Counted from the stretch's first letter, positions 9,957-26,007 are shown. The stretch is DNA of 33,939 nt from Eubacteriales bacterium (GCA_045591385.1 JAZNSU010000100.1:1-33939); one strand, 5' to 3'. Notes: generated by a model not told the origin, from the letters alone. Translations and numbers: made by a program.

Positions 9957-11152
9957 ATCACGTCCTCTCCTTTATTTGGTTTCAATTCAGCAAATACGTT
10001 ATTACTGGATAACAATATGAACACAAGCACCCAATTCATCATATAGTCGTACTGACCTTCCTTATTTATGATGATAAAAAATATAATTGCAACAAGCAGT
10101 TTCTCAATAAAAGTCAGACCTCTCTGCCTAAAAATGCCATAAAATATCGCCAAAGTATATGTTATGCCAAGTATTCCAAAAGAACTTAACAGATAGAACG
10201 ATCCGGCTGTGTTCGAAACATTAATTGTATTGGCAATAACATATGATTGCCCAAACCCGAAAAATGGACTTTGCCAAAACAGCTCCATGTTCTGTTCAAT
10301 AGCGAGAAGTCTGCTTGAGGTCAAAAGGGCATCGGAGTTCAATTCAGCCAAAAACTCATTGCTAGATATCATATTTTCTATAAAGCCACTCATAAACAGT
10401 ACAGCAGCTATAATAACGAAGGTGATCGGAGCAACAAAAGCAAGCTTGCTTTTGGATCTTCTTGAAATATTAAAGCTCAACAGAGCCAAAGCAAGTAAAA
10501 ATAAAACATATCCCGCCGCAGAAACAGTGGTCAATATTGTTAGTATTATGATCATATTGCATAAAACTTTATGACGTATTCCCGAAATATAATTCAGCAA
10601 TACAAATGCCAAAATAAGCCAGGAAGCATATACACCGGGCTCCCAAAAGGGTCCGCAGTTTCTGATAGGCTCGTTGGTAATAAAATTATATATATATCCA
10701 ACACTAAATGTCACACCATTCGAGTTTGTCTCTTGGGGAAGCCACGTCATCGGCGAAATATAGTTGTTTATACAATGACATATCAGGGATGCAGCCGCGA
10801 CAAGCACTATAATTTTCACAAAAAAAGTAATAATTTCCGCGTTAGAGAATTTATGGGTTATGTAATATGCCCCTAAGCAACAAAGCAAGAGGTTAGCATT
10901 TTCAAAGAAACCTCCCATGCCTCTGAATAATATCGAAAACATAACAAGCATCATCCACACTAAAAGGTGTATGTCTTCTATTAACAGTTTTCTTGATAAG
11001 AGCTTTAAAAATGCAAAAAATATTAGTGGCACAACAAGCCAGCGCAACACCAAAAAACCACCCGATAGTGTAAAGAAAAGACTTCCGCTAAACAAATAGC
11101 AAAATATTGTCAAGCATACCGCCCATATATATTTTTTTTTCAATTTAATCAT
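9953..11152 (-). CDS. wzy: Wzy-type repeat-unit polymerase / O-antigen-ligase-like membrane protein
   Basis: 399 aa, highly hydrophobic with more than 10 TM segments and one larger loop. The position between wzx and the transferases is typical. Called mainly on context and topology. Confidence 0.65.
   Translation of the reverse strand: MIKLKKKYIWAVCLTIFCYLFSGSLFFTLSGGFLVLRWLVVPLIFFAFLKLLSRKLLIEDIHLLVWMMLVMFSILFRGMGGFFENANLLLCCLGAYYITHKFSNAEIITFFVKIIVLVAAASLICHCINNYISPMTWLPQETNSNGVTFSVGYIYNFITNEPIRNCGPFWEPGVYASWLILAFVLLNYISGIRHKVLCNMIIILTILTTVSAAGYVLFLLALALLSFNISRRSKSKLAFVAPITFVIIAAVLFMSGFIENMISSNEFLAELNSDALLTSSRLLAIEQNMELFWQSPFFGFGQSYVIANTINVSNTAGSFYLLSSFGILGITYTLAIFYGIFRQRGLTFIEKLLVAIIFFIIINKEGQYDYMMNWVLVFILLSSNNVFAELKPNKGEDVM
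11132..11140 (-). repeat. A9 homopolymer in codons 5-7 of wzy
   Basis: The gene reads ATG ATT AAA TTG AAA AAA AAA TAT (T9 on plus, 11132-11140). Confidence 0.9.
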
Positions 11153-11205
11153 CTGATCACCTTATTGAAAAAGCTAAGATATCTGTATATTCACAAGCTT
11201 TATTA

Positions 11206-11871
11206 TTAAGCTTCATTTAGTACCTTGCTCACATCAGAAAAATTTTCACCGTGAGATTTCAACCACTCTTCGTTCTTATTCCACCACTGTAAATCAAGTA
11301 ATTTCCTTATAGTATCATCATCGAACCTATTTCGAATTACTCGTGCAGGAACACCACCTACAATTGCATAAGGAGGCACATCTTTAGTAACAACCGCACC
11401 TGCCGCTATGACAGCTCCGTGACCTATGTGAACACCGCCAAGAATAACTGTATTTGAACCAATCCATACGTCATGACCTATATCAATCATAAAATTGTGG
11501 TTTTTATCTGTATAGGAATACTCATTAAACATAACTTCGGATGAAATCAAATTATACTTTTTAGAATAAAATGCAGGATGGGTACTGGCCCAGTCTAACG
11601 GATGTACCCCCAAAGCGCAGCTCACCTTATCACCTATAGAACAAAATCGTCCAACATTTGCATATGATAACTGTGAGTCAGCCCCCACATAACTATATCT
11701 ACCTATATGGCAATGTCTAACTTGACTCAATGGTCCAATTGAGTTGTTTCCGGATTCTTCAAACTGTGTATCTATTACAATAGCTTTTCTTCCAATTGAT
11801 ATATGCTTTTTTTTGATGTCCGTGTTTAATATATATTTTCTTTTAACATGGCTAATAATTCTTCTTATCAT
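11206..11871 (-). CDS. Hexapeptide-repeat acetyltransferase, xenobiotic (Vat/CatB)-like
   Basis: Left-handed beta-helix repeats ([74 protein letters not shown]) plus the XAT-type segment [17 protein letters not shown] overlap with the upstream gene. Confidence 0.8.
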
Positions 11872-12875
11872 TGCTGTCCCCGTTTTTTGAATATATCACG
11901 TAAATGTTCACCTTTTTTTAAACCAAGTAATTTTCTTATTGCTTTTAAGATGGATATTTTTAAGCGTATATTAAGCGGAACAAGTAAGATATTTGAAACT
12001 ATTCGCTCATATTTTTTGTCCACTCGAACAATTTGGGGATGGTTCAACGGAAAATTAAGCAAATATGAATCCATACCGCACAATCTTTGTGTCATCACGC
12101 TCGAAAAAGAGGCGCCGCCGTGTATAGATTCGGAATCGACTCCTATATTTTTAATCTGGTTATTACACGGAGATATACCCAGAAGATCATACTTCCTTAT
12201 AGTATATGCCATTTGATAATCCCATGAAATAAAGCGCTTCTCCTCGGCTTTTCTTTCCCTCTCCATGCAGAAATTATTGAAGTCCTGTTTTGCCAAAGCC
12301 TTGTTGCGATAAGCCTTACGCAATGATTTTCTGTCCGTTTCAGGATTGAAGGTTTCGAGCTGTCCATCGTAGTATTTCAAAAATTTATGTGACCAAGAAG
12401 CCCATCCACATGGCAACAAGTTTTGAGTGAACATATAGCTATAGGATGTATTATACTTGCCTAGATAGTTGGTTCCACATATCCACAGAACCTTTTCATT
12501 GTCCTTATATTTTTCAAGCAACTCTCGGCAATAGTCGAAGAATGTAAGCTCAGGCATATTATCGTCTTCTAAGAATATTGCGCTCTCTTCCTGAGCCAGC
12601 ACCCACTTGGCTCCCTCTCCGATATTCTGATATACGCCTCTATTGGATTGTGCATAGTTTTTTACAACTTCGCAGTCCCAATCTATTGCCTGTTCAACAG
12701 CGTCCCTGGTTCTTTTTACTGCCACTGCTTCTTGTTCATTTCTAGCTCCGTCAGCTATGAGATACAATTTGGCTGGACGAACTTCTCCGATACGTTTTAC
12801 TATTTCAACTGTCTTGTGTTCTCTTTTAAACATAAACAGCGCAACTGGTATATCAAACTGATTAACCCCTGGCAT
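11868..12875 (-). CDS. Putative GT-A-fold glycosyltransferase (HlpA/GNT-I-like)
   Basis: Rossmann-like N-terminus [23 protein letters not shown]...[11 protein letters not shown] and an acidic motif FLEDDNMP. Start placed at ATG 12875 (MPGVNQF), preceded by AGGAGA. The ORF-track start 12893 has no SD. Confidence 0.55.
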
Positions 12876-12885
12876 ATCTATTCTC

Positions 12886-14001
12886 CTATACATTTTGCTT
12901 TAACCAATTCTTAAATTCACTATCCAAGCGCTTTATAAGCTCGTTATATTCAATATTGCTCGCTTTAGCTGATTTTTCAATAGCATGTGCTATTGAACTC
13001 GGTTCGTTTTCATCATAATACGTCCAACCCTTTGCTATCTCGGCTTTTTCAAAATTCTCCGACCGTCCGATGACAACCTTCAACCCGTGGCAAACATAGG
13101 TGGTCAGTTTTGACGGAAAAACACAATTTGAAAAAGGAAGCCTAATAATATAGGTAGACAGACCTATTTCACAAGAAAACAAGAGGTCAGAAAGTTCTTT
13201 GCCGTCAAGTTTTCCGTGATAGGCAATTTGGCAACCGCCAAGGCGATTATTTTCTTCAATCATGTCCTTAAGTTTGGCAATTGATTGCTCAGTGCCAAAA
13301 CCGGCAATATGCATTTCATAGGTGGATGGCAGATAGCGAGCCGCCTCCACCGCCGTATATGCTCCGATCTTTGATTGTTCTATTGTGCCGGCATATACCA
13401 CCCGCACCTTATCGTGAGGAACGATATCTGGTTTTTCTTGTGCAATATATGCACCATAGCAGACCGTATAGTTTTGAGATATCCCTAAAAAATCGGGCAG
13501 AACGTTATTAACAAAAATGTGTTTCGGGAACTTCTTTATATCCTCGATTTCTTTATGAACGTTGGGATTGTCAAACGATGCGCCATATCCATACAACTCT
13601 TCGACCTCTAAAATCCAGTTGATGTTTTTCTTTTTAAGATGCTTCGTAAGTCGTCGTGTAAGATTTACTGAATGGTAAACTACAACCGTATCGTTGTCCT
13701 TCACCCGAGTTTTGATATATCTAGTGATTTCTCTATTGAATTGTAACTTATCAATCACTTTTTCAAACAAACCACCAAACGATGTTACTCTGTACGTAAG
13801 ATTATAGCCTTCATCAGTAACTAGGCTTTTAGCGGGAAGTCTTCCTTTGCTCTTTTTTCTGCAAACCGAAAAGACAGACAGATCTTCTCCTGTACTTTTT
13901 AGTGAAGCCGCTACGTACTGCATCTTTTTTAGTCCCGGCACGTTGTATGAATAGTCGTTTTCATTATATTTATCTACATAGTATCCTATATAATGTATCA
14001 T
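12886..14001 (-). CDS. Putative GT-B-fold glycosyltransferase
   Basis: 371 aa. The C-terminal half (VVYAGTIEQSKIG...MHIAGFGTEQSIAKLKDMI...YHGKLDGKELSDLL...PSKLTTYVCHGLKVV) has the GT1/GT4-like layout. The N-terminal half is divergent. Confidence 0.5.
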   Translation of the reverse strand: MIHYIGYYVDKYNENDYSYNVPGLKKMQYVAASLKSTGEDLSVFSVCRKKSKGRLPAKSLVTDEGYNLTYRVTSFGGLFEKVIDKLQFNREITRYIKTRVKDNDTVVVYHSVNLTRRLTKHLKKKNINWILEVEELYGYGASFDNPNVHKEIEDIKKFPKHIFVNNVLPDFLGISQNYTVCYGAYIAQEKPDIVPHDKVRVVYAGTIEQSKIGAYTAVEAARYLPSTYEMHIAGFGTEQSIAKLKDMIEENNRLGGCQIAYHGKLDGKELSDLLFSCEIGLSTYIIRLPFSNCVFPSKLTTYVCHGLKVVIGRSENFEKAEIAKGWTYYDENEPSSIAHAIEKSAKASNIEYNELIKRLDSEFKNWLKQNV

Positions 14002-14002
14002 T

Positions 14003-15190
14003 TCATCTTCCTCTTTGATTTAAGGATCCTGCTAAATGAAGTTTCTGAAGCAGTGCCCATAACCTATATTTATAAGCGTTCTTAGGCAATATGCCGTTCT
14101 TACCCGCGGTTTTGAAGCCCTTTGAGAATACCTCTGCATAGACAGTACTTCTATGGGGATTTCTTTCGGGTGGGGAGATAAAGTTTACGTTTTGATAGGT
14201 CGCATCCTTTATATCAACTTCAGCTATTTCAACGTTATCAACAATGCCCTGAAGCAAAGCTTTCCCTCTTTCGCTATTGACAAATATCAAAGAAGTTCCG
14301 TCGGCGCAAAACAGCTCGGGGCGAACCTTATCGACTCCCCAAAAATCCGCGAGTGTTATATCGCCCTCCCGCTCGATAGTAGTATACGGACACGCATAAC
14401 AGGATTCTCTCTGAGTCATATTTCTCAAGAATCCCGAAAAATACTCAGAAAGGTGACGGTCAAGATAATAGGTGTTTTCCTTGCCCTTTTTTTCAATTTT
14501 ATAGCGCTGTGTGATAGACCAACCATTTTTTTCTTTATCTCTGAAAGCTATCTCGGTTAATCTTCCGCCGTGCTTTTTCTCAAGATATTTGATATATTCA
14601 TCAAACAGCTTTTGGCTTGGAACGCCGTGGCAGAGCACATCGAGTGTATAAAGATTTGGCGTTTTATACAGTCTTTTTATTGCCGAAACCTGACATGGTG
14701 TACCCGAAAAAAGCAGTTTTCTCCCGGAGGAAAGAGCTTGCTCTATTTGAGGATAACAGCGTGCAAGGTCGCTCTGGACGTATTTTGACCCCTGAAGCAG
14801 AGGTATATCCTCAACCGAGTCGATAACGGTATGAAACACCTGGTGGTCGGCATCTATGGTAACTCCACAGACTGCTCCGCCCTGTGAGATAAAGAGATTT
14901 GCTATCTCAGAGAACAAACCGCCTGAAGAGCTATTCATAATATATCCTTTATTTTTAGTGTGAGCACCGTAAGCTTTTGGATAGGCTTCGGTTCGTACTA
15001 TCTCTCTGTCTTCAAAAGGGCAGACTGTGGCACATCTGTTGCAGTTTATGCAGGCAGACATATCTACTGTCGGGTAGGCAAAGCCTTCTTCGTCGGCCGT
15101 CAACCTTATGCAGTTTTTGGGGCAAGCGTGTGCACACGCTCCGCATCCGCAGCATTTTGATGTGTTATTAGTTTCTAAATACACATTCAT
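14003..15190 (-). CDS. Fe-S flavoprotein, coenzyme F420 hydrogenase/dehydrogenase beta-subunit (FrhB)-like
   Basis: Two ferredoxin-type Cys clusters (CCGCGACAHACP, CINCNRCATVCP) followed by an FrhB-type domain (SSSGGLFSEIA, FSGTPCQVSAIK, LDVLCHGVPS). SD GGAGG upstream. Confidence 0.75.
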   Translation of the reverse strand: MNVYLETNNTSKCCGCGACAHACPKNCIRLTADEEGFAYPTVDMSACINCNRCATVCPFEDREIVRTEAYPKAYGAHTKNKGYIMNSSSGGLFSEIANLFISQGGAVCGVTIDADHQVFHTVIDSVEDIPLLQGSKYVQSDLARCYPQIEQALSSGRKLLFSGTPCQVSAIKRLYKTPNLYTLDVLCHGVPSQKLFDEYIKYLEKKHGGRLTEIAFRDKEKNGWSITQRYKIEKKGKENTYYLDRHLSEYFSGFLRNMTQRESCYACPYTTIEREGDITLADFWGVDKVRPELFCADGTSLIFVNSERGKALLQGIVDNVEIAEVDIKDATYQNVNFISPPERNPHRSTVYAEVFSKGFKTAGKNGILPKNAYKYRLWALLQKLHLAGSLNQRGR

Positions 15191-15191
15191 C

Positions 15192-16343
15192 CTACGACCT
15201 CCTATCCAACGCGTTTTCCATGTATGACATCGACTTGTCGCGGCAGGAATACAGCCTTTCCTCTGCGTTAGCCGTATTCACGGGGACGATACTCTCCCTT
15301 GGGGAAGAACACATACACTCATGCAGTTGTGTGGTTTCGAGCAGGGTGTCGATACGTGAGGTTTGCTTCACCGCATCAGAGTGGTTCCTGCCAAAGACCT
15401 TCAGCGGTCGTCCAAACAGGACAGAGAATACGCTTCCGTGGAACGAATTGGTGAAAACACATTCCGCTTCATCTATGTATCGCAAGAACTCCCATGGACC
15501 CGCATGAACAAGCTGTGCACCGTTTGAAATCAGCTGTGTATTGCCGCTTGACAGCACCAACATTTTTAAATTATTTTCTCGGGAATACTTCGCTATTTGT
15601 TCAACTATGTCCGCTTCGGGTTCGTCGAAAAAATAGCACAGCGCGTATTTGCCATTTTCGTTATACGGTGTGTGCTCCTTATAAAGTGTTCTCCATTCGT
15701 CACCCGACAACAGCATGGTCGGGTCAAGAACAACGGGCGCATCTATACCAATCAACCCCTTTACAATCTCTGCGCCCTGATTCTCTCTGACGGAAATATC
15801 ATCAAACCCAAGAAGCATTTTCTTGACAAACGCCTTGTTGTAATCGGGAACAGCCGAAACTCCGAAAGACGGAGCATATGCGATTCGCTTTTTTCGAGGA
15901 GCAAAGTTCAGATATTTATATCCCGACAGATGCACAGACAGTGGCGACCATATCTGATCACTTCCGCAGATAACTGCTCCTAAACTCTCAGTACGGGCAG
16001 CTTTTGCAAGCGAGATTCTATCTATATTTGTGTTCGGCAGTTGCTCGGACAGGAACTCGTTAAACAGATTTGCGGTTTCGCTCGAAATACAGCTTTCGCT
16101 TCTATGCTTCAAACTGCGTATTTCCTTGTGCGTTTTCCTTGCGGTACTATACAACACGCACTTTACAACCGTGACAAAACCAACGTGCAGTTTATGCGCG
16201 ATTTTACAGACAGGATTTTTTTCTTTTACATTCAAAAAAACAACGTCGTGTCCAAGCCTATTGCATATCGTTTTCAAGGAATATGCTTGTAATGCAGAAC
16301 CATAATTTTTTATATTAAAGTATGTAACTACACCTATCTTCAT
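15192..16343 (-). CDS. Polysaccharide pyruvyl transferase family protein
   Basis: N-terminus MKIGVVTYFNIKNYGSALQAYSL and the central segment ICGSDQIWSP are characteristic of PS_pyruv_trans (CsaB/WcaK/EpsO type). ATGA overlap with the upstream P-loop gene. Confidence 0.8.
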   Translation of the reverse strand: MKIGVVTYFNIKNYGSALQAYSLKTICNRLGHDVVFLNVKEKNPVCKIAHKLHVGFVTVVKCVLYSTARKTHKEIRSLKHRSESCISSETANLFNEFLSEQLPNTNIDRISLAKAARTESLGAVICGSDQIWSPLSVHLSGYKYLNFAPRKKRIAYAPSFGVSAVPDYNKAFVKKMLLGFDDISVRENQGAEIVKGLIGIDAPVVLDPTMLLSGDEWRTLYKEHTPYNENGKYALCYFFDEPEADIVEQIAKYSRENNLKMLVLSSGNTQLISNGAQLVHAGPWEFLRYIDEAECVFTNSFHGSVFSVLFGRPLKVFGRNHSDAVKQTSRIDTLLETTQLHECMCSSPRESIVPVNTANAEERLYSCRDKSMSYMENALDRRS

Positions 16344-17002
16344 ATGTTTCCCTTTTCCTTTAACGCATCAAAAACCTTTTTTGCCGCCTCTATACTCTGA
16401 CAGTCTTCGTTGTTTGATACGGGTATTAAATACTGCTTTCCATACTTGGATTGCCAACAATCACGCAAAATTTCCGCAGTATTTATCGAATCGCCAATGG
16501 CGGCGGAGGTGTCGTCACTATTTAAGTAAAACGGTTTGTCCTCGCGCAGCTCCATGCGCTTAGTAAGCACCGATTTGGCTATTGAAACAAACACCAAAAT
16601 TCTATCTGTTTGCTTCGGCAATATCTCATCAAACAGACTTCTAATTGTTTCTTCATCAGCTTTTCTGTTGTCAAACAAAGAACCGATACACTGGCACAAG
16701 CCCTGTTCAAAAATCAAAACATCGCCATTTGCTGACGTGCCAAGTATATCCAAATAGTTTACCCAGCATCTCTTGCTGCCGAGCTTTTTAAAGAGGCGAT
16801 AGCTTGTGCGTGGATGAAGGACGCACATTTTTATGGTTTTTAGGATTTTAGATATAATTCTCTTGTAGCTATTCTTCAAATGAGAAAGCTCATATTGTTC
16901 TTCACACACGCTTTTCCCGAATTCTTTTATCAACAATGCAAGTTCGTGTGAAATCTGTGACTTTCCCGAACAAGGCGCACCTAAAAACTCAATAATTACC
17001 AT
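16340..17002 (-). CDS. Orphan P-loop NTPase (kinase-like), function unknown
   Basis: Walker A FLGAPCSGKSQIS at residues 6-18, a Walker-B-like DVLIFEQG and a possible lid LTKRMELRED. I recognise no other family signature. Confidence 0.55.
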   Translation of the reverse strand: MVIIEFLGAPCSGKSQISHELALLIKEFGKSVCEEQYELSHLKNSYKRIISKILKTIKMCVLHPRTSYRLFKKLGSKRCWVNYLDILGTSANGDVLIFEQGLCQCIGSLFDNRKADEETIRSLFDEILPKQTDRILVFVSIAKSVLTKRMELREDKPFYLNSDDTSAAIGDSINTAEILRDCWQSKYGKQYLIPVSNNEDCQSIEAAKKVFDALKEKGNI

Positions 17003-17003
17003 T

Positions 17004-17506
17004 TTAATCTAACCCCTTAATTATCTTTGCCGGTACGCCGGCCACTACACAGTTGTCTGGCACATCGTGCGTAACAACCGCATTTGCCCCAACAATCACG
17101 TTATTGCCAATCATAACGCCGGCGATTATTGTTGATTTGGCCCCCAGAGTACAGTTGTCCCCAATTACAGCAGAAATAAATTTTCCATCTACATTTTCTG
17201 TTGTGATTGTAACCTGATGATAAATTTTGCAATTTTTCCCCACATGAGCATATTTGAATATGATAATACCATTTAAGCCGTGTGGGAGATGCGGAGCTGT
17301 TTCAAATGTTGCTCCGGAACATAAATCCGTACCCATAGACGCATTGTTAAAAGCATCCGACCTCTTTATTTTATAGAGATACAAAAGCTTTAAAGGGGTT
17401 ACCCCCCCCGCACAACATAAGAACGCATTTCCCAATATTTTCGTTCATTGTAGTGGTGAAGCTGTGAATTGAGCCACAAAGCAAACTTTCCTACGTTTAA
17501 TTTCAT
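17004..17506 (-). pseudogene. WcaB/CysE-like hexapeptide O-acetyltransferase interrupted by a G8 tract (frameshifted; candidate phase-OFF allele)
   Basis: ATG 17506-17504 (ATGA overlap with the upstream GT4 stop) opens [35 protein letters not shown], then TAA at 17401-17399. The body, [25 protein letters not shown]...HQVTI...[14 protein letters not shown], continues in another frame directly after the tract. G9 or G6 would give one 167- or 166-aa protein. Confidence 0.75.
17402..17409 (-). repeat. Poly-G (G8) homopolymeric tract inside the acetyltransferase gene
   Basis: Plus strand reads ggggtta-CCCCCCCC-gcacaac. It is the only G/C run of 8 or more nt I found in the AT-rich cassette. Confidence 0.95.
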
Positions 17507-18711
17507 GTTTTCCCACCCACAATCTCTTTATAAAGCTCACAATATTTTTCATATTGATTATGCTTATCGAAATTCTCGGAAACAAATCTTATGCAATTAT
17601 CCGAGAAAGCTGTTTTCTTTTGCTGCCTTATTTTTTTAATTCCTTCGTAGAGATAATCCACACCGTGCTCGCAAACAAAACCACAGCCGTCGCAGATCAA
17701 CTCCGGCAAGGCTGTCTTATTATAGACGACCGCAGGGGTGCCGCAAGCCATCGCTTCAACTACGGTCAGTCCCATCGTTTCTTCCACAGAGGCACTCACA
17801 TAGACATCCGCCATATTGTAATAATCACACAGCTCGCCAGCATTTGCAGTCCTTTTAATGCCGACTATGTTTTCGGGGAGCGTTTCAATCTGCTTGTCGG
17901 TGAGTCCGATAAGGACAATTATCTCATCATCATCTAGTTTATGCGACAACTTTACAAAATCATCCAGTCCCTTTTTGGAATTCCATCCCATAGAAACGCC
18001 CAGAATGACGAATTTATCCTTCATCCGCATTGGCCTTTCAATCTGCTTTTGCTTGAACGTGCTAAGGTCGATTCCATTGTATATTGGAGTAATGTTTTTA
18101 TCAGCAAAATATGATTGTTCTGCTTTCGACTTTACCCAATTAGACACGGTGACGATGTAAAGATTATCCCACCCTTGAAATACTTTTCGCTTTTTCTTAT
18201 GCAAGGATTTCGAACGGTCAAAGAATTTACTGTATGGGAAAAGACTTTTCTGAGGACATTTCCCGCATTGCGTTTTCCATTTATCGCATCCTACAGACTC
18301 AAAATGAGTACAATGACCTGTAACAGCCCAAAAGTCATGCATTGTCCATACTACAGAAATACCACTTTTCTTCAGAAACAGTAAAAGCTTTTCTACATTC
18401 AGATAATAACTGTAAATATTATGCAGATGCACAACATCCGGTTGAGTTTTCTTTATAAACCAAATGGCTTTTGCGGTTGCGATAGGCGAGTGAAATCCGG
18501 AATTACCACACAAAATACCGAGGATTTGATGCAACTTTACGCCAATGGTCGATGAACAAAAATAGACGTTATCCGCTTTTGTCTTTTCTTTGTATCCGGA
18601 GGAAATGATGTAATTTTCAATGTTATTCTCTTGCATCACCTCTGAGAGTTGAGTCACAATTTTACCTGTGCTGCCACTGCTTGACACCCCATTTATTTGA
18701 ACAACTCTCAT
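17503..18711 (-). CDS. Glycosyltransferase family 4 (GT-B)
   Basis: MRVVQINGVSSSGSTGKIV at the N-terminus. The C-terminal portion ADVYVSASVEETMGLTVVEAMACGTPAVV is the GT4 E-x7-E region. SD GGAGTGG upstream. Confidence 0.85.
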   Translation of the reverse strand: MRVVQINGVSSSGSTGKIVTQLSEVMQENNIENYIISSGYKEKTKADNVYFCSSTIGVKLHQILGILCGNSGFHSPIATAKAIWFIKKTQPDVVHLHNIYSYYLNVEKLLLFLKKSGISVVWTMHDFWAVTGHCTHFESVGCDKWKTQCGKCPQKSLFPYSKFFDRSKSLHKKKRKVFQGWDNLYIVTVSNWVKSKAEQSYFADKNITPIYNGIDLSTFKQKQIERPMRMKDKFVILGVSMGWNSKKGLDDFVKLSHKLDDDEIIVLIGLTDKQIETLPENIVGIKRTANAGELCDYYNMADVYVSASVEETMGLTVVEAMACGTPAVVYNKTALPELICDGCGFVCEHGVDYLYEGIKKIRQQKKTAFSDNCIRFVSENFDKHNQYEKYCELYKEIVGGKT

Positions 18712-18729
18712 TCTTTACACCACTCCAAC

Positions 18730-19695
18730 TCATTTTACTTTGATTTTTCTATAAATACTTCTAATCAAATTTCTTCCCTTGCCTATAGCAGAAAAATAAA
18801 TCTTATACCATGATGAAACAATCGCATATTTTACGGGCGATGTCAGCTCTTTAGCGTATGCAAAGGCATATGCGGAAGCATCAGGCATCAACCGTTTTCT
18901 CAAATACCCGCCAAGCCGCAAAAAATACTTGCCTTGCTTATATTCCGGATTTGCATACATTTGGTCAGCAATCCATTTGTGCAGATCATTTCCCTCAATA
19001 TCAAAGGTCGTTACTTTTGTTTTACCTACCTGTCTTTTATGTACACGTCCTCTTATTAAGCAACGATCCAAATAATAGAAATCATAACCGGCAAACAACA
19101 ATCTATACCAATATTCCGCATCTGAAACTGTTCGGATCTTTTCATTGAATCCGCCTATATCATCAAACGCTTTTCTTGGCAGCAAGAAAGAACAACCAGC
19201 TAAGCGATAGTTGTATACGTTGTTCAAAATCATCTCTATCAGCGGTTCTTTTTCTTTGACGTCACTGTAATTGTATTTGAGTATCGTCTTTCCATGAATA
19301 TCAATGGACTCTGCTGCGCATCTTACCACTACTCTATCCAAATTGAGATCGGGATTTTTTTCAAGCAGTTTTCCTACGTAATTCACTTCTTCTTCAACTT
19401 TGGTAGGATAATAGAGGTCATCGTGTGAAAGCCAAGACAACCATTCACCGCTCATATTTTCTATGCAAAGATTGAGTGCCGAGGAAACTCCGCCGTTTTG
19501 CTTTGGAAAATATTTGATTTTATCACCATAAGATAGAGCGATTTTTTCCGTTTCGCCATTATCAGTGGACCCATCATTGACTACAATGATCTCTGTGTTT
19601 TTGTATGTCTGCTCAAGTGCGGAAGCAATGCTTTCGTGAAGATAATTTGCTCCGTTGTATACGGGAATTACGATCGTTACTAAAGGATTATACAC
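18730..19695 (-). CDS. Glycosyltransferase family 2 (GT-A)
   Basis: VTIVIPVYNGANYLHESIASALEQTYKNTEIIVVNDGSTD plus WLSHDDL (DxD-like). GTG start with SD GAGGTGG, overlapping the upstream gene end by 8 nt. Confidence 0.88.
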   Translation of the reverse strand: MYNPLVTIVIPVYNGANYLHESIASALEQTYKNTEIIVVNDGSTDNGETEKIALSYGDKIKYFPKQNGGVSSALNLCIENMSGEWLSWLSHDDLYYPTKVEEEVNYVGKLLEKNPDLNLDRVVVRCAAESIDIHGKTILKYNYSDVKEKEPLIEMILNNVYNYRLAGCSFLLPRKAFDDIGGFNEKIRTVSDAEYWYRLLFAGYDFYYLDRCLIRGRVHKRQVGKTKVTTFDIEGNDLHKWIADQMYANPEYKQGKYFLRLGGYLRKRLMPDASAYAFAYAKELTSPVKYAIVSSWYKIYFSAIGKGRNLIRSIYRKIKVK

Positions 19696-20824
19696 TTTCT
19701 TCCACCTCTTCTCTAATGTATTGTTTGTATATCTGTTCCATCTGTTTTAAGGAGTTTTCTATGCTGAACTTTTCAGCGGTTATTTTTGCTTGCTTAGACA
19801 TTTCTTGATATTGTACTTTGTCGTAATACAAACATTCAATTTTCGCACAAAACTCAGAGATGTCATTAACATCTATAAGGTAACCGTTCTGCTCATTTTT
19901 GACCATTTCCTTGTGCCCTCTGACAACAGAAACAACCGCTGGCAATCCGGACGCCATACCTTCAACTATGTTAATACCAAAGCCCTCTTCAATACTCGCC
20001 GAAATCAAAATATCACTCATTCGTAAAACATCTGGCATATTTGTGCAGAAGCCAAGAAAATCTATATGTTCAGCTACATCGGATTGTTCGGCATACTTTT
20101 TTGTTTCTTCTGCCAAGGCGCCCTTGCCTGCAAACAAAATCTTTACATCAGGGCAATTTTTCACTAGCTCTTTTGTGGCTTCAACAAAAAAACGATGATT
20201 CTTTCTGGGAATAAACTCAGCCACATAGGTCAGAAGGAACTTACCTTCATATCCATTTGATTTTTTCAAGGCTTCTTTATCCTGTGCGGGAGAAAACCTA
20301 TTGATATCAACACCTATTCCGCTTATTTTCGCAATCTTTGTTTTTGGGGATCCAAATTTTTCTTTTGCGTTATTAAAATCCTCCTCGTTGATGGTAATAA
20401 TACAATCAGCGCATGGCGCAAGAAGCTTTTCCATCGTGTAATATAAGAGCCAATTTATTTTTGGCGCACCTTTATAAAAATGAAATCCGTGTGCAGTGTA
20501 TAAAACCTTTGCCCCCTGTTTTCTGATCTTACGAGAGGCGAGCCTACCAATTACACCTCCCATCGGTGTGTGGCAATGCACCATATCGTATTGTTCGGCA
20601 TTTATTATTTTCTTTGCTGTTTTATATGCCGCAAAATTTTTCAATGAAAACGGGGAACGTTCAATCTTAACGTCGTAATATTTATCAAAACCATCCACCT
20701 TTTGCCCGTCGTTATTTGCCATAACATGGACTTCATACCCCATCTCTTTGAACCATTTTATGTATGGCAAATGAAACGCATATATGTGAGACAAAACATT
20801 ACTCACAAATAAAACTTTCTTCAT
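19688..20824 (-). CDS. Glycosyltransferase family 4 (GT-B)
   Basis: MKKVLFVSNVLSHIYAFHLPYIKWF at the N-terminus. C-terminal SDILISASIEEGFGINIVEGMASGLPAVVS (E-x7-E). Start moved to ATG 20824, behind GGGGGAAG. Confidence 0.85.
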   Translation of the reverse strand: MKKVLFVSNVLSHIYAFHLPYIKWFKEMGYEVHVMANNDGQKVDGFDKYYDVKIERSPFSLKNFAAYKTAKKIINAEQYDMVHCHTPMGGVIGRLASRKIRKQGAKVLYTAHGFHFYKGAPKINWLLYYTMEKLLAPCADCIITINEEDFNNAKEKFGSPKTKIAKISGIGVDINRFSPAQDKEALKKSNGYEGKFLLTYVAEFIPRKNHRFFVEATKELVKNCPDVKILFAGKGALAEETKKYAEQSDVAEHIDFLGFCTNMPDVLRMSDILISASIEEGFGINIVEGMASGLPAVVSVVRGHKEMVKNEQNGYLIDVNDISEFCAKIECLYYDKVQYQEMSKQAKITAEKFSIENSLKQMEQIYKQYIREEVEESV

Positions 20825-20860
20825 TCGTGTTCTTCCCCCAAACTGCAAATCCACAACCTA

Positions 20861-21493
20861 TTATTTGTGACTATATAATCCGTCTGCATTCGTAAAATAG
20901 ATGGATCGAATGCCCAGCATTTCAGGCGCAACAAAGTCCTTTTTTATGTTGTCTCCAACATAACACATTTCCTCAAATTCCACACCAAGTGCATCTGCCA
21001 TTTTTATGAACGCCATTTTATTTGGCTTGCGAAATTCAACACCGCCAAGCTCATCCGTAATGATAATGTAGTCAACAAGCTTGTCTAACCCAAGCGCATG
21101 GATTTTTGCCCTTTGTCCTTCCGGCCTGCCGTCAGTAATAATTCCCAGCTTATATCCTTTTGACCGAAGTTGGTCCAACAATTCTTTTGCACCTTCATAA
21201 AAATGAATAGTCGGCTGATGGAATCGATACACGGAAAGACATTTTTGCTTTATTTCATCCGTATAAATGCCTTCTGTTATTAACACATCGTCTATGGCTG
21301 ACTTCTTTTGTTCAAACGCAGCCCACAATTTTTCATCTATTTGTTCCACCTGAGGCAGAATATCGGCAATCGCTCGATAGCCACTTCTCACATATTCCTT
21401 TTCACCATACAGCGTATCATCCAAATCAAATATAATTGCTCGTAATCCTTGAATATATTTTATGACTTCGGTTATGGACGTAATCGTTATCAC
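20861..21493 (-). CDS. HAD-superfamily hydrolase (phosphatase-like)
   Basis: Motif I IIFDLDDTLY, motif II GIITDG and motif IV CYVGDNIKKDF. GTG start directly abutting the ATP-grasp stop, with SD GAGGGAAA. Confidence 0.8.
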   Translation of the reverse strand: MITITSITEVIKYIQGLRAIIFDLDDTLYGEKEYVRSGYRAIADILPQVEQIDEKLWAAFEQKKSAIDDVLITEGIYTDEIKQKCLSVYRFHQPTIHFYEGAKELLDQLRSKGYKLGIITDGRPEGQRAKIHALGLDKLVDYIIITDELGGVEFRKPNKMAFIKMADALGVEFEEMCYVGDNIKKDFVAPEMLGIRSIYFTNADGLYSHK

Positions 21494-22474
21494 TCATTTT
21501 CCCTCATTTATACAAATGCTTTGGTCAAATCGGCTATAAATTGCACCATCCTTTGCTGCCTTTTCCTGATATGTTAATTTTTCTCCATTCAACATTCTTA
21601 ATACAGCCTTGGCGCTATCTGCACCCGCCTTAATGCTCAAAGGTGCGCCCCCGCCAAATCGAGGGTTGATCTCTATATAGAAATTCCCCCCTGTTTTTTC
21701 GTCTTGGATCATCTGCACGGTAATTTGACCGCAAGGCTTATAATCAGCAATTAACTTCATCATTTCTGCAACTATTGTTTCGTCCTGTGTGATCTTCGTT
21801 TTTAGAACTTCGCCGGCACGAACCGCCAGACGCTCTCTTGGTGTAATATATACAGGATTTCCTTCGTAATCACAGAAAATATCAATGGTGTATTCTCTGC
21901 CGCTAATAAATTTCTGTATGATATAATCCTTAACCTTTTGGGTGTACAAATCTAAATCTTCATGATTTTCTATCTTATAGGTATTGATGCTCGAACTACC
22001 ATCCTTAGGTTTAATGAACGCAGGAAAAAGTGCCGAGTCTTCCGACAACATTTGTTTGTATTTTTCTACACTGTTGGTAGAAAAGGGGGATTTCAATCCA
22101 AGAGAAATAAAGTAATTCGCAGTATAGTTCTTATCCCTACACAACTTCACTTTATCCGCTGCAGAGATCAATACTTTTGTTCCTACCGCTTCAAATTGTT
22201 GTTTGTTTTCCGCAAGAAGCATTAAATCTGTATCAATAGTCGGAATTAGACAATCCACCTTCTCATTTTTACAAATAGATAACAGCTGAGGGATATAATT
22301 GCAATCCTTGATTCTGGAAATAATTTTTGCTTCATCACAAAAATACAACGCCGGAGCATCAGATGCAATGTCTGCACCAACTATTGTCAACTCAATTTGC
22401 AATTCACTGGCCGCTTTTCTAAAGGCTTGGATAAGCTCTACACGCCGACCAATACTGGTGAATAGTATCTTCAT
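21494..22474 (-). CDS. ATP-grasp domain ligase
   Basis: N-terminal pre-ATP-grasp region MKILFTSIGRRVELIQAFRKA...LIPTIDTDL, a central FIKPKDGSSS...IIQKFISGREYTIDIF and a C-terminal YIEINPRFGGG (Mg-ATP site). Confidence 0.8.
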   Translation of the reverse strand: MKILFTSIGRRVELIQAFRKAASELQIELTIVGADIASDAPALYFCDEAKIISRIKDCNYIPQLLSICKNEKVDCLIPTIDTDLMLLAENKQQFEAVGTKVLISAADKVKLCRDKNYTANYFISLGLKSPFSTNSVEKYKQMLSEDSALFPAFIKPKDGSSSINTYKIENHEDLDLYTQKVKDYIIQKFISGREYTIDIFCDYEGNPVYITPRERLAVRAGEVLKTKITQDETIVAEMMKLIADYKPCGQITVQMIQDEKTGGNFYIEINPRFGGGAPLSIKAGADSAKAVLRMLNGEKLTYQEKAAKDGAIYSRFDQSICINEGK

Positions 22475-22490
22475 TCAAATTATCTCCCAA

Positions 22491-23135
22491 TCATTTAAGA
22501 ACAACTTGCTTCTGTTCAGTACCCATAAATTCTTCCATTGTAGCCGATGTTTCAGAACTAATTCCATCTCTTTTTAACACTTTCCCGACGGTTTGAAACA
22601 TGATTTTCCAATCCCCTAGAAAAGTAATATTATCAACATATTGAACATCATAATCAAATTTTTGTTCCCAGCTAATAGCATTACGTCCGTTTACTTGGGC
22701 ATATCCGGTAAATCCGGGACGAACTTCATGTCTGCGAGCCTGATGTGCATTGTATCGTGACAAATAACGGGGAAGTAATGGCCGTGGTCCCACCCATGAT
22801 TGCTCCAGCCGCAGTATGTTTATAATGGCAGGCAATTCATCTAGAGATAAGCTACGAAGTGTCTTGCCAAACTTTCCAAGCCTCTCTTCGTCCGAAAGCA
22901 AATTTCCCTCGTTGTCCCTTGCATCGCTCATTGTTCTAAATTTATATAACTTAAATATCTTGCCGTTTAACCCCGGTCTTTCCTGCTTAAATATTACAGG
23001 GGATCCAAGTTTCACTTTTACCAATATTGCAACAACCAGCAAGACAGGGCTTAACATAACAATCGCAAGCAAAGCTAGTATAAAATCTTGAGGTGCTTTT
23101 ATAAACCGCTCATAAAATCCTTTTTTATGTATCAT
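22491..23135 (-). CDS. Small monotopic undecaprenyl-phosphate sugar-phosphate transferase (PglC/EpsL/WcfS type), initiating enzyme
   Basis: One N-terminal re-entrant helix ([20 protein letters not shown]), then [43 protein letters not shown] and [13 protein letters not shown]. Confidence 0.88.
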
Positions 23136-23628: not shown

Positions 23629-24813
23629 TTAATCAAAACAATGCCTTACGATTTCGATGATCTGATCCTGCTGCTCGGCGGTCATCTTGATATCGCTGGG
23701 CAGGCAGAGACCTCTCTCAAAAAGGTCGGCGCCGACATCGGTGCCCGCCGCGGTGACAAACGGGCAGTTTTGATAGAACGGCTGGAGGTGCATCGGTTTC
23801 CAGATGGGACGCCCCTCGGCGTTGCAGCGCTTGAGGGCTTCCAGTATCTCGGTCGGGCAGGACTTGCCTGCTTGTTTGGTGTAGGTGGCCTCCGAATCGG
23901 TGCGCTGTTGCGGGCACATGGCTTCCTTGTCGATCAACAAACAAGAGAGCCAGAAATTGGGTTCCATCTCGTCGGCGGGATAGGGGTTCATCATGATGGG
24001 AAGATCCTTAAAGCCCGCTTTGTACCGCTCATAGATGGCCTTTTTCTTGGTAATGTGCTCCTCTAAATGGGCGAACTGACCGCGGACGACGCCGGCGATC
24101 ACGTTGCTCATGCGGTAATTGTAGCCGATGCCGGTATGCTGATACCACGGGGCGTTTTCGCGGTTCTGGGTCGACCACTGGCGGGTTTGGTGCGCCGCGT
24201 CGCGATCGTTAGTCAGTAACATACCGCCGGAGGAACCGGTGATGATTTTGTTGCCGTTAAAGGAAATGACATTATAGGTACCAAAGGTACCGGTCTGCCG
24301 TCCCTTATAGGTGGCGCCGAAGGACTCGGCCGCATCCTCGATCAAAATGGCGCCGTGTTTTTTAACAATGGCGCAAATCTCATCAAATTTGGCGGGGGTG
24401 CCATACAGGTTAGCCACAATGACAACCTTGGTATCGGGATACTTCTCAAAGGCGCACGAAAGTGCCTTGGGATCCATGTTCCAAGTTTCGTGTTCCGAGT
24501 CGATAAAGATCGGGGTGGCATGCTCATAAACCACGGGGTTTACCGTGGCGGCAAAGGTGGTATCGGTACAAAAGACCGTATCTCCTGCCTTCACGCCGGC
24601 CAGCTTGACCGCCAGATGCAGGGCAGCCGTACCGCAAGACAGGGCAACGGCGTAGCCGCATCCCGTCTTCTCACAAACCAAGCGCTCGATCTCATTTATA
24701 TTTTCACCAATGGTACTCATCCAGTTGGTGTCATAGGCATGCTTAACATATTCCAGTTCCTCCCCGTGCATGGTGGGGGACGCTAACCAGACTTTATCTT
24801 TAAAAGGTTCCAC
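23629..24813 (-). CDS. DegT/DnrJ/EryC1-family PLP-dependent sugar aminotransferase (EpsN/PglE/WcfR-like)
   Basis: WLASPTMHGEELEYVKHAYDTNWMSTIGENINEIE resembles the EpsN N-terminus. Also ALSCGTAALHLA and SFNGNKIITGSSGGML (the PLP lysine region). GTG start 24813 with SD GAGGAAA. Confidence 0.88.
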   Translation of the reverse strand: MEPFKDKVWLASPTMHGEELEYVKHAYDTNWMSTIGENINEIERLVCEKTGCGYAVALSCGTAALHLAVKLAGVKAGDTVFCTDTTFAATVNPVVYEHATPIFIDSEHETWNMDPKALSCAFEKYPDTKVVIVANLYGTPAKFDEICAIVKKHGAILIEDAAESFGATYKGRQTGTFGTYNVISFNGNKIITGSSGGMLLTNDRDAAHQTRQWSTQNRENAPWYQHTGIGYNYRMSNVIAGVVRGQFAHLEEHITKKKAIYERYKAGFKDLPIMMNPYPADEMEPNFWLSCLLIDKEAMCPQQRTDSEATYTKQAGKSCPTEILEALKRCNAEGRPIWKPMHLQPFYQNCPFVTAAGTDVGADLFERGLCLPSDIKMTAEQQDQIIEIVRHCFD

Positions 24814-24909
24814 AATTATTTCCTCAAATCTACTTATACTTTTCCTCTGTCTGGGTATATGCGATGCTATGAGATTGTAAAGGGTAAACCAAACGATTTA
24901 TACCGAAGT

Positions 24910-24939
24910 GTGCCCGTAGTCGCGAGAGACTACGGGCAC
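24910..24939 (-). terminator. GC-rich hairpin after the LCP gene (attenuator or mRNA-stabiliser candidate; no U-tract)
   Basis: Perfect 12-bp stem GTGCCCGTAGTC / GACTACGGGCAC with a 6-nt loop, 55 nt downstream of the LCP stop. The minus strand continues ACTTCGGTATAAA, which is not U-rich. Confidence 0.4.
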
Positions 24940-24993
24940 CCATGTATTCTTTCCTTGCATTGTGCATGGGTCGATGCCCAAGGACAGGCCATA

Positions 24994-25995: not shown

Positions 25996-26007
25996 AGAGA
26001 TTACCCC

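What the first reader, a model, noticed from the sequence alone, without database searches (positions are those of the whole stretch)
17399..17506. G8 homopolymer splits a capsule O-acetyltransferase: candidate slipped-strand phase-variation switch
Seen in sequence: on the minus strand, an ATG at 17506-17504 overlaps the TGA of the upstream GT4 gene (ATGA). It opens 35 codons ([35 protein letters not shown]) that run into a run of eight G (C8 on plus, 17402-17409) and stop at TAA 17401-17399. The hexapeptide acetyltransferase body ([25 protein letters not shown]...HQVTI...[12 protein letters not shown] 17004-17435) resumes in another frame immediately after the tract. That ORF has only a TTG start with no SD, and a TGA lies four codons upstream. 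One extra G (G9) or two fewer (G6) fuses both parts into one 167- or 166-aa protein. The N-terminal YW-x-x-R-x-x-VV segment and the IKR-x-DA-x-NAS-x-GT segment look like the two halves of the WcaB/CysE-like capsule O-acetyltransferase N-region as I remember it. An 8-nt G run is very unexpected in this AT-rich cassette. Established knowledge: poly-G/C tracts in capsule and LOS modification genes are the classical phase-variation mechanism in Campylobacter jejuni, Neisseria and Haemophilus. Inference: O-acetylation of this polysaccharide switches ON/OFF stochastically, and the sequenced allele is OFF. To my knowledge this mechanism has not been described for clostridial-type capsule loci. A homopolymer sequencing error is the competing explanation.
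Basis: partly seen in the sequence, partly recalled or inferred. Interest (0 to 1): 0.8.

Follow-up and report, generated by a model that had tools for sequence, protein, structure and literature searches.

The report
Poly-G switch in capsule acetyltransferase gene
A run of eight G's breaks a sugar-acetylating enzyme gene in the capsule locus of an uncultured gut Clostridia bacterium, and near-identical copies from other samples carry 7, 9 or 11 G's, so the run is a real mutation-prone on/off site of a kind well known in pathogens.

Summary
On the minus strand an ATG at 17506 opens 35 codons that run into G8 (17409-17402) and stop at TAA. The hexapeptide-acetyltransferase body continues in another frame to 17004, and G9 or G6 restores a 167- or 166-aa protein.

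The 35-codon piece is the true family N-terminus: Y24 and W25 are invariant in 58 homologues. The tract encodes a variable loop between two N-terminal helices.

Related alleles vary in tract length. L093 (G9, intact) and L094 (G7, broken) are 99.9% identical over 5.8 kb, and the tract is their only indel. The window's closest relative, L096 (98.8%), has G7. Another allele has G11. Interrupted tracts are mostly in frame. All tract-broken alleles keep otherwise clean reading frames with dN/dS of 0.02-0.24. A8 and A9 runs in neighbouring genes do not vary between assemblies.

Best reading: a hypermutable slipped-strand site toggles a serine-acetyltransferase-like polysaccharide O-acetyltransferase, and the window allele is OFF. 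The gene is also knocked out by other, irreversible lesions in relatives, so selection for loss of acetylation is part of the picture.

Reversible switching within a population was not tested, because no reads were available. The mechanism is classical (oatC, neuO, wciZ). This is a new member of a known kind, in a little-studied gut commensal lineage.

The parts
17402..17409 (-). G8 homopolymer (C8 on the plus strand). Candidate slipped-strand site, in the OFF length in this allele.
   Evidence: Relatives carry G7, G9, G11 or interrupted versions at the same place.
17399..17506 (-). 5' fragment of the acetyltransferase gene: 35 codons plus TAA. It encodes helices 1-2 of the N-terminal helical region.
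   Evidence: The N-terminus is conserved in 58 homologues. The model has helices at 7-16 and 21-32.
17004..17402 (-). Body of the acetyltransferase in the -1 frame ([25 protein letters not shown]...[10 protein letters not shown], then the stop). It holds helix 3 and the left-handed beta-helix with the conserved His76.
   Evidence: Pfam Hexapep 44 bits, cut-off 27. NCBIfam EpsC, cysE and WcaB all match below their cut-offs. Best fold match is CysE, TM-score 0.65.
17004..17506 (-). The whole gene as one unit. One extra G gives a 167-aa protein identical in layout to the intact homologues.
17503..18711 (-). Upstream GT4 glycosyltransferase. Its TGA overlaps the acetyltransferase ATG (ATGA), so the two are probably translationally coupled.
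   Evidence: The Pfam annotation comes from the syntenic genes.
16340..17002 (-). Downstream 220-aa P-loop protein (GAPCSGKS) with no Pfam family. It follows the acetyltransferase in every syntenic locus, and its ATG lies one base after the acetyltransferase stop.
8589..23135 (-). Low-GC (38-40%) variable cassette of a Gram-positive Wzx/Wzy capsule or EPS locus. In transcription order: initiating transferase, ATP-grasp, HAD, GT4, GT2, GT4, acetyltransferase, P-loop protein, pyruvyl transferase, FrhB-like protein, two unknowns, second acetyltransferase, Wzy, Wzx.
23629..28920 (-). Conserved head of the locus: Wzz-like protein, CpsD-like ATPase, CpsB phosphatase, LytR/CpsA and a DegT aminotransferase.

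Best explanation
The gene at 17004-17506 (minus strand) encodes a roughly 167-aa serine-acetyltransferase-like hexapeptide-repeat O-acetyltransferase. It sits in the variable cassette of a Wzx/Wzy capsule or exopolysaccharide locus of an uncultured gut Clostridia (Oscillospiraceae-like) bacterium.

Codons 33-35 (Arg-Gly-Gly) lie in a length-tolerant loop between two N-terminal helices. In this lineage they are written as an uninterrupted poly-G run.

Slipped-strand mispairing during replication changes the run length. G9 (or G6 or G12) is ON. G7, G8, G10 and G11 are OFF. The window allele is G8, so translation stops at the TAA right after the run, and the catalytic beta-helix (His76) is not made.

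Cells in this state should make the polysaccharide without that O-acetyl decoration. A one-base gain would restore it.

Shown here: the frameshift, the authenticity of the N-terminus, tract-length polymorphism among near-identical alleles, and purifying selection on the rest of the gene.

Inferred: the slippage mechanism, its reversibility and rate, the O-acetyl phenotype, and the selective agents (phage, IgA).
For: 1. Intact homologues read through the tract. P0001, P0133, P0131 and others are 167 aa at 89-96% identity.

2. DNA-level tract table:
- window: C+G8, OFF
- L096: C+G7, OFF. It is 98.8% identical to the window over 1066 nt, and the tract is the only indel.
- L095: CGGGGGAGGG, ON
- L093: C+G9, ON
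- L094: C+G7, OFF. It is 99.897% identical to L093 over 5818 nt, with 4 mismatches, and the tract is the only gap.
- L001: CGT+G7, ON
- L097: CGT+G11, OFF, seen on 3 contigs
- L002: G5 to G6, OFF
- L098: the run is deleted, OFF
- L003, L083 and L084: interrupted tracts, in frame

3. All three allele groups that carry a pure run of G7 or longer show length polymorphism.

4. The differences are 2-4 nt and come from different samples and assemblers. This is not the pattern of single-base homopolymer miscalls.

5. Controls. The A9 run in wzy has the same length in the window and L002. The A8 run in the second acetyltransferase has the same length in the window, L002 and L003. The acetyltransferase is the only visibly split gene in the tiled ORF list of the window.

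6. dN/dS is 0.02-0.24 for all pairs, including OFF-versus-OFF pairs. No second stop occurs in either half of any tract-OFF allele. The frameshifts are therefore young or reversible.

7. The tract lies 97 nt into the ORF, in a loop between helices 21-32 and 38-53. In homologues this segment varies in length and sequence.
Against: - No read-level data were available. Within-population heterogeneity and reversibility are therefore untested.
- The link between a long pure run and being out of frame is only modest. Fisher p = 0.037 when protein-inferred alleles are included, and p = 0.57 with DNA-verified alleles alone.
- Many relatives carry interrupted tracts, so a long run is not conserved across the allele family.
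- The same gene is also inactivated by lesions that cannot revert by slippage: a 135-nt in-frame deletion, a 5-nt loss of the whole run, A5 to A4, G5 to G4, and a break after KIY. This fits selection for loss as well as it fits a dedicated switch.
- The sequencing platform of the window is unknown.
- The acceptor sugar and the O-acetyl phenotype are unknown.
Confidence: 0.62

Rival explanations
1. Adaptive or neutral pseudogenisation, not a switch. O-acetylation is dispensable or counter-selected in the gut, so the gene is repeatedly and essentially irreversibly lost. The G-rich stretch is simply the most mutable target in the gene.
For: - Relatives carry non-tract lesions: a 135-nt in-frame deletion on 10 contigs (P0026), A5 to A4 (P0126, P0128), G5 to G4 (P0134), a break after KIY (P0027) and lost stops (L002, P0127).
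- L098 has lost the whole run through a 5-nt deletion, which slippage cannot reverse.
- Roughly half of the roughly 24 alleles seen are null.
- The precedent is pneumococcal wcjE and wciG, which are inactivated by diverse mutations (PMC4432689, PMC6018339).
Against: - OFF alleles have no secondary stops, and dN/dS is 0.02-0.24 even between two OFF alleles. No OFF allele has been dead for long.
- Closely related pairs differ only in tract length: G9 versus G7, and G8 versus G7. The run keeps changing.
- G9, an ON length with a pure hypermutable run, exists (L093).
- This rival is partly compatible with the best explanation rather than exclusive of it.
Confidence: 0.22
2. Homopolymer sequencing or assembly error in this contig. 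The real genome has G9 and an intact gene.
For: - The defect is a single-base difference in an 8-nt homopolymer, which is the classic error site.
- Reads and sequencing platform are unavailable.
- The window is a lone 33.9-kb contig of an uncultured organism.
Against: - It is the only visibly split gene in the window's tiled ORF list.
- The A8, A9 and T-runs elsewhere leave their genes intact, and their lengths are identical to those in independent assemblies.
- The closest relative, L096, is also out of frame, with a different length (G7).
- Independent assemblies show differences of 2-4 nt (G9 versus G7, G7 versus G11). Consensus miscalls would not produce these.
Confidence: 0.12
3. Programmed recoding. 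The G8 allele is expressed as a full-length protein by -1 ribosomal frameshifting on G_GGG_GGG just before the TAA, or by transcriptional slippage that adds a G. On this reading the gene is not really OFF.
For: - The body lies in the -1 frame.
- A -1 slip of two tRNA-Gly on G_GGG_GGG would re-pair perfectly and give exactly the G9 protein (sequence logic).
- A stop codon follows immediately and could pause the ribosome.
Against: - No stimulatory RNA structure lies downstream. The minimum free energy is -19.8 kcal/mol, z = -0.8, and 42 of 200 shuffles fold at least as well.
- The frameshift is not conserved. Relatives are in frame, or out of frame in the other direction. Programmed sites such as dnaX or prfB are conserved (own knowledge).
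- G-only heptamers are poor shifters in bacteria (own knowledge).
- At most, a low level of leaky expression is plausible.
Confidence: 0.04

Closest known systems
Neisseria meningitidis oatC, the serogroup C capsule O-acetyltransferase with homopolymeric tracts
   Same: A capsule O-acetyltransferase gene inside the cps locus. Its ORF contains homopolymeric tracts, and changes in their length during replication switch acetylation ON and OFF (PMC2413038).
   Different: OatC is not a hexapeptide-repeat enzyme (own knowledge). It comes from a Gram-negative pathogen and acts on a polysialic acid capsule. Its switching is shown experimentally, whereas here it is only inferred from alleles in different samples.
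Escherichia coli K1 NeuO
   Same: A hexapeptide-repeat capsule O-acetyltransferase that is phase-variable by slipped-strand mispairing of a repeat near the 5' end of the gene. O-acetylation changes phage susceptibility (PMC9659370).
   Different: The repeat is a heptanucleotide (poly-psi), not a homopolymer. The gene is carried on a prophage. The sequences are not close: PDB entries labelled polysialic acid O-acetyltransferase (2wlc, 3jqy) match only residues 112-164, at E about 1e-7.
Streptococcus pneumoniae wciZ (serotypes 15B/15C), and wcjE and wciG (11A/11E, 9V/9A, 35B/35D)
   Same: A Gram-positive Wzx/Wzy cps locus. wciZ switches reversibly by slipped-strand mispairing. wcjE and wciG are recurrently inactivated by diverse mutations (PMC4432689, PMC6018339). 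Both patterns are seen in this allele family.
   Different: The wciZ repeat is a TA dinucleotide, and these enzymes are membrane acyltransferase-3 proteins rather than soluble hexapeptide enzymes (own knowledge). The organism is a pathogen, not a gut commensal.
Campylobacter jejuni poly-G contingency genes in capsule and LOS loci
   Same: Intragenic G/C runs of about 8-11 nt in surface-polysaccharide modification genes give ON/OFF phase variation (PMC8355987, PMC13317227).
   Different: Campylobacter has dozens of such tracts per genome and lacks mismatch repair (own knowledge). Here only one tract is seen in 34 kb, and the repair status of the host is unknown.
Serine O-acetyltransferase-like sugar acetyltransferases (EpsC, CysE, WcaB)
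   Same: The left-handed beta-helix with a conserved His (PHG motif) and a C-terminal VPAK segment. The best structural match is CysE 6wye, TM-score 0.65.
   Different: Scores are far below the curated cut-offs: EpsC 86.9 against 150, cysE 65.6 against 210.65, WcaB 52.1 against 194.65. The N-terminal 50-60 residues match none of these models.

Membership tests
Hexapeptide-repeat (left-handed beta-helix) acyltransferase superfamily | Hexapeptide repeats that score above the Pfam gathering threshold | tested here: met
   PF00132 scores 44.0 bits against a cut-off of 27. PF14602 scores 40.6 against 27.
Hexapeptide-repeat (left-handed beta-helix) acyltransferase superfamily | Left-handed beta-helix fold with a serine-acetyltransferase-type catalytic His | tested here: met
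   The AF2 model has short-strand coils from residue 57 to 150. Foldseek matches CysE 6wye with TM-score 0.65. H76, in PHGLNG, is invariant in 58 homologues. Its catalytic role is inferred by alignment to CysE.
Serine O-acetyltransferase EpsC (NF041874), CysE (TIGR01172) and WcaB (TIGR04016) equivalogs | Whole-protein score above the curated NCBIfam cut-off | tested here: not met
   EpsC 86.9 against 150. cysE 65.6 against 210.65. WcaB 52.1 against 194.65. The matches cover only residues 52-164.
Simple-sequence-repeat contingency (phase-variable) locus | A repeat long enough to be hypermutable (a G/C run of about 7-8 or more), placed in the 5' part of an ORF so that length changes toggle the frame | tested here: met
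   G8 lies at nt 98-105 of a 504-nt gene. G9, G6 and G12 are in frame, and G7, G8, G10 and G11 are not.
Simple-sequence-repeat contingency (phase-variable) locus | Repeat-length polymorphism among closely related strains, with the rest of the gene unchanged | tested here: met
   L093 (G9) and L094 (G7) are 99.897% identical over 5818 nt, with no other indel and no other difference within the gene. The window (G8) and L096 (G7) are 98.8% identical. L001 has G7 and L097 has G11.
Simple-sequence-repeat contingency (phase-variable) locus | The ORF is otherwise intact and under purifying selection in OFF alleles | tested here: met
   dN/dS is 0.02-0.24 in all pairs, including OFF-versus-OFF pairs. 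There are no extra stops.
Simple-sequence-repeat contingency (phase-variable) locus | High-frequency, reversible ON/OFF switching within a clonal population | not testable with these tools
   No reads or cultures were available. Only consensus assemblies from different samples could be compared.
Simple-sequence-repeat contingency (phase-variable) locus | A long uninterrupted tract is maintained across the lineage | tested here: inconclusive
   Pure runs of G7 or longer occur in three allele groups. Many alleles are interrupted (RGR, QEG, QKG, AGR, SGG).
Programmed -1 ribosomal frameshift site | A conserved slippery heptamer plus a downstream stimulatory structure | tested here: not met
   The downstream fold has z = -0.8. 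The frameshift is not conserved in relatives.

The most novel reading that the evidence does not exclude
Homopolymer-based contingency switching, so far a hallmark of mucosal pathogens, also operates in strictly anaerobic commensal gut Clostridia. There it would toggle capsule O-acetylation at the population level, plausibly under phage or IgA pressure. It can be read directly from public metagenomes as G7, G8, G9 and G11 allele series.
Probability: 0.5. Interest if true: 0.55.

Novelty: new member of a known kind. Interest (0 to 1): 0.45.

Why it matters
Phase variation in gut commensals has been charted mostly as DNA inversions, and as methyltransferase-driven epigenetic phase variation (PMC11892184, PMC11741434). 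My literature searches found no report of repeat-driven switching of capsule decoration in gut Clostridia.

If the tract really switches, uncultured Oscillospiraceae-like bacteria diversify their surface polysaccharide in the same way as meningococci, E. coli K1 and pneumococci. That bears on phage predation, IgA coating and strain persistence.

There is also a practical point. Annotation pipelines split or discard such genes, as they did here with 35-aa and 110-aa calls. Capsule chemistry inferred from metagenome-assembled genomes can therefore be wrong in a state-dependent way.

Tried and rejected
- Exact-protein look-ups of the window's GT4 and P-loop proteins, meant to find same-strain contigs, returned nothing.
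- The IMG/VR scan and the plasmid BLAST found no relatives. The locus is chromosomal, flanked by atpBEFHA and mutY.
- I tested whether WcaB, CysE or EpsC models cover the N-terminal piece. They do not. The N-terminus is validated only by closer homologues.
- I tested for a frameshift-stimulating RNA structure downstream of the run and found none.
- I checked whether G8 is improbable by composition alone. It is not convincingly so.
- I checked whether other homopolymers in the cassette also vary: A9 in wzy and A8 in the second acetyltransferase. They do not.
- An internal restart seems unlikely to rescue function. The 110-aa MGTDL product has no Shine-Dalgarno sequence and lacks all three N-terminal helices and the invariant K48, D51 and A52 motif. 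This was not tested.
- Three literature searches for repeat-driven phase variation in gut Clostridia found nothing specific. This is absence in an open-access subset, not proof of novelty.

Full report
**1. The observation**

Reading the minus strand shows ...GGGAAAACATGAAATTAAAC.... The ATG at 17506-17504 overlaps the TGA of the upstream 402-aa GT4 gene. It opens [35 protein letters not shown], which ends in GTG CGG GGG GGG TAA.

The run is exactly eight G's (C8 on the plus strand, 17402-17409), and the stop is at 17401-17399. The hexapeptide-repeat body ([25 protein letters not shown]...[10 protein letters not shown]) continues in the -1 frame down to 17004. The mechanical ORF there (17004-17435) starts at TTG, with a TGA four codons upstream.

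In-silico tract lengths G6, G9 and G12 give uninterrupted proteins of 166, 167 and 168 aa. G7, G8, G10 and G11 do not. Every factual element of the finding is correct.

The claim that G8 is 'very unexpected' is only weakly true:
- Shuffles of the whole window contain at least one such run in 41 of 100 trials, with a mean of 0.72.
- A first-order Markov estimate for the 38-40% GC cassette gives about 0.14.

**2. What the gene is**

The repaired protein passes the Pfam Hexapep threshold (44 bits against 27). Its best NCBIfam matches are the serine-acetyltransferase-like sugar acetyltransferases, all far below their curated cut-offs:
- EpsC, 86.9 bits against a cut-off of 150
- cysE, 65.6 against 210.65
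- WcaB, 52.1 against 194.65

All of these matches start only at residue 52-55. A profile of 58 homologues against the PDB likewise matches serine acetyltransferases from position 61-65 onward.

An AlphaFold model was built on that alignment. Its mean pLDDT is 71.6, rising to about 88-91 for residues 21-80. It has three N-terminal helices (7-16, 21-32, 38-53) followed by the beta-helix coils. The best structural superpositions are CysE enzymes, with TM-score 0.65 for 6wye.

The protein is therefore a member of the hexapeptide acyltransferase superfamily with a serine-acetyltransferase-like architecture. It is not an equivalog of EpsC, CysE or WcaB.

**3. The 35-codon piece belongs to the gene**

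These include intact 167-aa proteins at about 89-96% identity that read straight through the junction, for example P0001 and P0133 with ...SYVVRGGVTPLK....

In the 58-sequence alignment, Y24 and W25 are invariant, and H18, Y19, R28 and V31 are at least 90% conserved. All of these lie inside the 35-codon fragment.

The tract codons (33-35) fall in the one segment of the N-terminal region that varies in both sequence and length among homologues. In the model, that segment is the loop between helix 2 and helix 3. Such a place can tolerate RGG, RGGG or RG, which is what a length-variable repeat requires.

It is not met.

**4. Genomic setting**

The window is a complete 33,939-nt NCBI contig. The annotators called the two pieces as separate 35-aa and 110-aa proteins.

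The locus is a Gram-positive type Wzx/Wzy capsule or EPS locus on the minus strand. In transcription order it holds:
- Wzz-like protein, CpsD-like ATPase, CpsB phosphatase, LytR/CpsA and a DegT aminotransferase
- a Bac_transf initiating transferase, ATP-grasp, HAD, GT4, GT2, GT4
- the acetyltransferase, then a P-loop protein with no family
- a pyruvyl transferase, an FrhB-like Fe-S protein and two unknowns
- a second hexapeptide acetyltransferase, Wzy, Wzx, and FnlA/CapE-like, CapF-like and 2-epimerase genes

It is chromosomal, flanked by atpBEFHA and mutY. The variable cassette (about 8.5-23.5 kb) is 38-40% GC, inside flanks of 52-55% GC.

The AtpA protein is 98% identical to proteins labelled 'MAG: Clostridia bacterium' and 88% identical to one labelled Oscillospiraceae. 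The best genome hit for the cassette is an Oscillospiraceae MAG, L003. 'Clostridial-type capsule locus' is therefore a fair description.

**5. The comparative test**

I fetched the DNA of every close allele I could reach and aligned the junction. The table shows the sequence between GTG/GTT and TAAC. Ten nucleotides is in frame.

| Locus | Tract | State | Note |
|---|---|---|---|
| window | C+G8 | OFF | |
| L096 | C+G7 | OFF | |
| L095 | CGGGGGAGGG | ON | |
| L093 | C+G9 | ON | |
| L094 | C+G7 | OFF | |
| L001 | CGT+G7 | ON | |
| L097 | CGT+G11 | OFF | on three contigs |
| L002 | (T)CAGGA+G6 | OFF | its in-frame relatives have G5 (P0129) |
| L098 | CAGGA, no run | OFF | 5-nt deletion |
| L083 | CGTGAGGGGG | in frame | broken downstream |
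| L084-L092 | CAGGGGGAGG | in frame | 135-nt in-frame deletion |
| L003 | AGCGGTGGGG | ON | |

The pairs are the key result.
- L094 and L093 come from different samples and assemblers. They are 99.897% identical over 5818 nt, with four mismatches. The G9/G7 difference is their only gap. Within the gene they have no other difference.
- L096 and the window are 98.8% identical over 1066 nt. Again the tract (G7 versus G8) is the only indel.

All three allele groups that carry a pure run of G7 or longer show length polymorphism that includes out-of-frame lengths. It is not met.

**6. Assembly artefact or real?**

I cannot see reads, so an error in this particular contig cannot be excluded. Several points argue against a generic artefact.
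- The differences are 2-4 nt (G9 versus G7, G7 versus G11), not single miscalls.
- They recur across ENA and Logan assemblies of unrelated samples.
- The A9 run at codons 5-7 of wzy is identical in the window and L002. The A8 run in the second acetyltransferase is identical in the window, L002 and L003.
- The acetyltransferase is the only visibly split gene in the window's tiled ORF list.

I put an error in the window itself at about 0.12.

**7. Switch or decay?**

I removed the tract codons and computed Nei-Gojobori dN/dS on 163 codons. The ratio is 0.02-0.24 for all pairs, including pairs in which both alleles are OFF: window-L097 0.096, L097-L002 0.053, window-L096 0.24 on 11 differences. 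No tract-OFF allele has a second stop in either half. The frameshifts are therefore young relative to allele divergence, or are repeatedly reversed. Both fit a hypermutable site.

The gene is also hit elsewhere in relatives:
- a 135-nt in-frame deletion that removes the catalytic region (P0026, 10 contigs)
- A5 to A4 (P0126, P0128)
- G5 to G4 (P0134)
- a break after KIY (P0027)
- lost stop codons (L002, P0127)

L098 has deleted the run altogether. Roughly half of the roughly 24 alleles seen are null, and six of about ten independent lesions fall within the tract.

This looks like the union of two patterns known in pneumococci: reversible slipped-strand switching of wciZ (15B/15C), and recurrent irreversible loss of wcjE and wciG (PMC4432689, PMC6018339).

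The statistical link between a pure run of G7 or longer and being out of frame is modest. Fisher p = 0.037 with protein-inferred alleles and p = 0.57 with DNA-verified alleles only.

**8. Recoding alternative**

The body lies in the -1 frame. A -1 slip on G_GGG_GGG before the TAA would yield exactly the G9 protein. However, the 92 nt downstream fold no better than shuffles (z = -0.8), and the frameshift is not conserved in relatives. Programmed recoding is therefore unlikely, although low-level leakiness remains possible.

**9. Mechanism proposed**

Slipped-strand mispairing in the poly-G run toggles translation of a serine-acetyltransferase-like O-acetyltransferase. That enzyme would decorate the repeat unit of this Wzx/Wzy polysaccharide.

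In the window allele (G8), ribosomes coupled from the GT4 gene terminate after 35 codons. Helix 3 and the whole catalytic beta-helix (invariant K48, D51, A52, H76) are not made. The internal MGTDL start has no Shine-Dalgarno sequence. The downstream P-loop gene has its own AAGGGG sequence 8-13 nt before its ATG, so it need not be affected.

- Shown: the frameshift, the authenticity of both halves, tract-length polymorphism, and purifying selection.
- Inferred: slippage as the cause, reversibility, the O-acetyl phenotype, and the selective agents.

**10. Comparison with known systems, and novelty**

The mechanism is the classical contingency-locus design. Direct functional precedents are:
- meningococcal oatC, with homopolymeric tracts in a capsule O-acetyltransferase (PMC2413038)
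- E. coli K1 neuO, a hexapeptide-repeat O-acetyltransferase with a 5' heptanucleotide repeat and a phage-resistance phenotype (PMC9659370)
- pneumococcal wciZ (PMC4432689)
- Campylobacter poly-G capsule genes (PMC8355987)
- 5' homopolymers as general inactivation devices (PMC2831843)

This case is new in its host (an uncultured gut Clostridia commensal), in the enzyme subfamily, and in the fact that the allele series can be read from public metagenomes. My searches of the open-access library found no description of repeat-driven capsule phase variation in gut Clostridia. That is weak evidence of novelty.

Verdict: a real and well-supported candidate, and a new member of a known kind. Interest is moderate (0.45).

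Noticed in passing
window 11132-11140 (T9 on the plus strand; minus-strand gene 9953-11152): The Wzy-like polymerase gene has an A9 run at codons 5-7 (MIKLKKKY). This is another 5' homopolymer that could in principle toggle the whole polymer. Its length is identical in L002.
   Followed up: partly
window 11807-11814 (T8 on the plus strand; minus-strand gene 11206-11871): The second hexapeptide acetyltransferase of the cassette has an A8 run about 60 nt into its ORF. The run is A8 in L002 and L003 as well, so no polymorphism was seen. I used it as a control for homopolymer assembly noise.
   Followed up: partly
window 16340-17002 (-): A 220-aa protein with a Walker A motif (GAPCSGKS) and no Pfam family. 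It lies directly downstream of the acetyltransferase in every syntenic locus. It may be a kinase- or sulfotransferase-like modifier of the same polysaccharide.
   Followed up: no
window about 8500-23500, compared with the flanks: The variable cassette is 38-40% GC inside flanks of 52-55% GC. The flanking cps regulatory genes match L095 at only 85%, while part of the cassette matches it at 93%. This suggests cassette exchange by horizontal transfer.
   Followed up: partly
L002 1-4743: In this relative the cassette abuts a relaxase-like gene, NikA/MobC genes, a large serine recombinase and a truncated (94-aa) Bac_transf. The cassette appears to be cut or carried by a mobile element.
   Followed up: no
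L084-L092 (gene at L084:6323-6691); P0126, P0128, P0134, P0027: Other independent lesions of the same acetyltransferase. A 135-nt in-frame deletion removes the catalytic region on 10 contigs of one study (SRR152831xx). There are also A5 to A4 and G5 to G4 frameshifts and a break after KIY.
   Followed up: partly
L002:10225-10238 and P0127: In one allele group the acetyltransferase stop codon is mutated (TAA to CAA). This extends the protein by 5 residues (QNADY or QNANY), so it overlaps the downstream gene's start.
   Followed up: no
window 14003-15190 and 15192-16343 (-): A pyruvyl transferase is paired with an FrhB/FdhB-like 4Fe-4S protein inside the cassette. The pairing recurs in all syntenic loci, and its role is unclear.
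   Followed up: no
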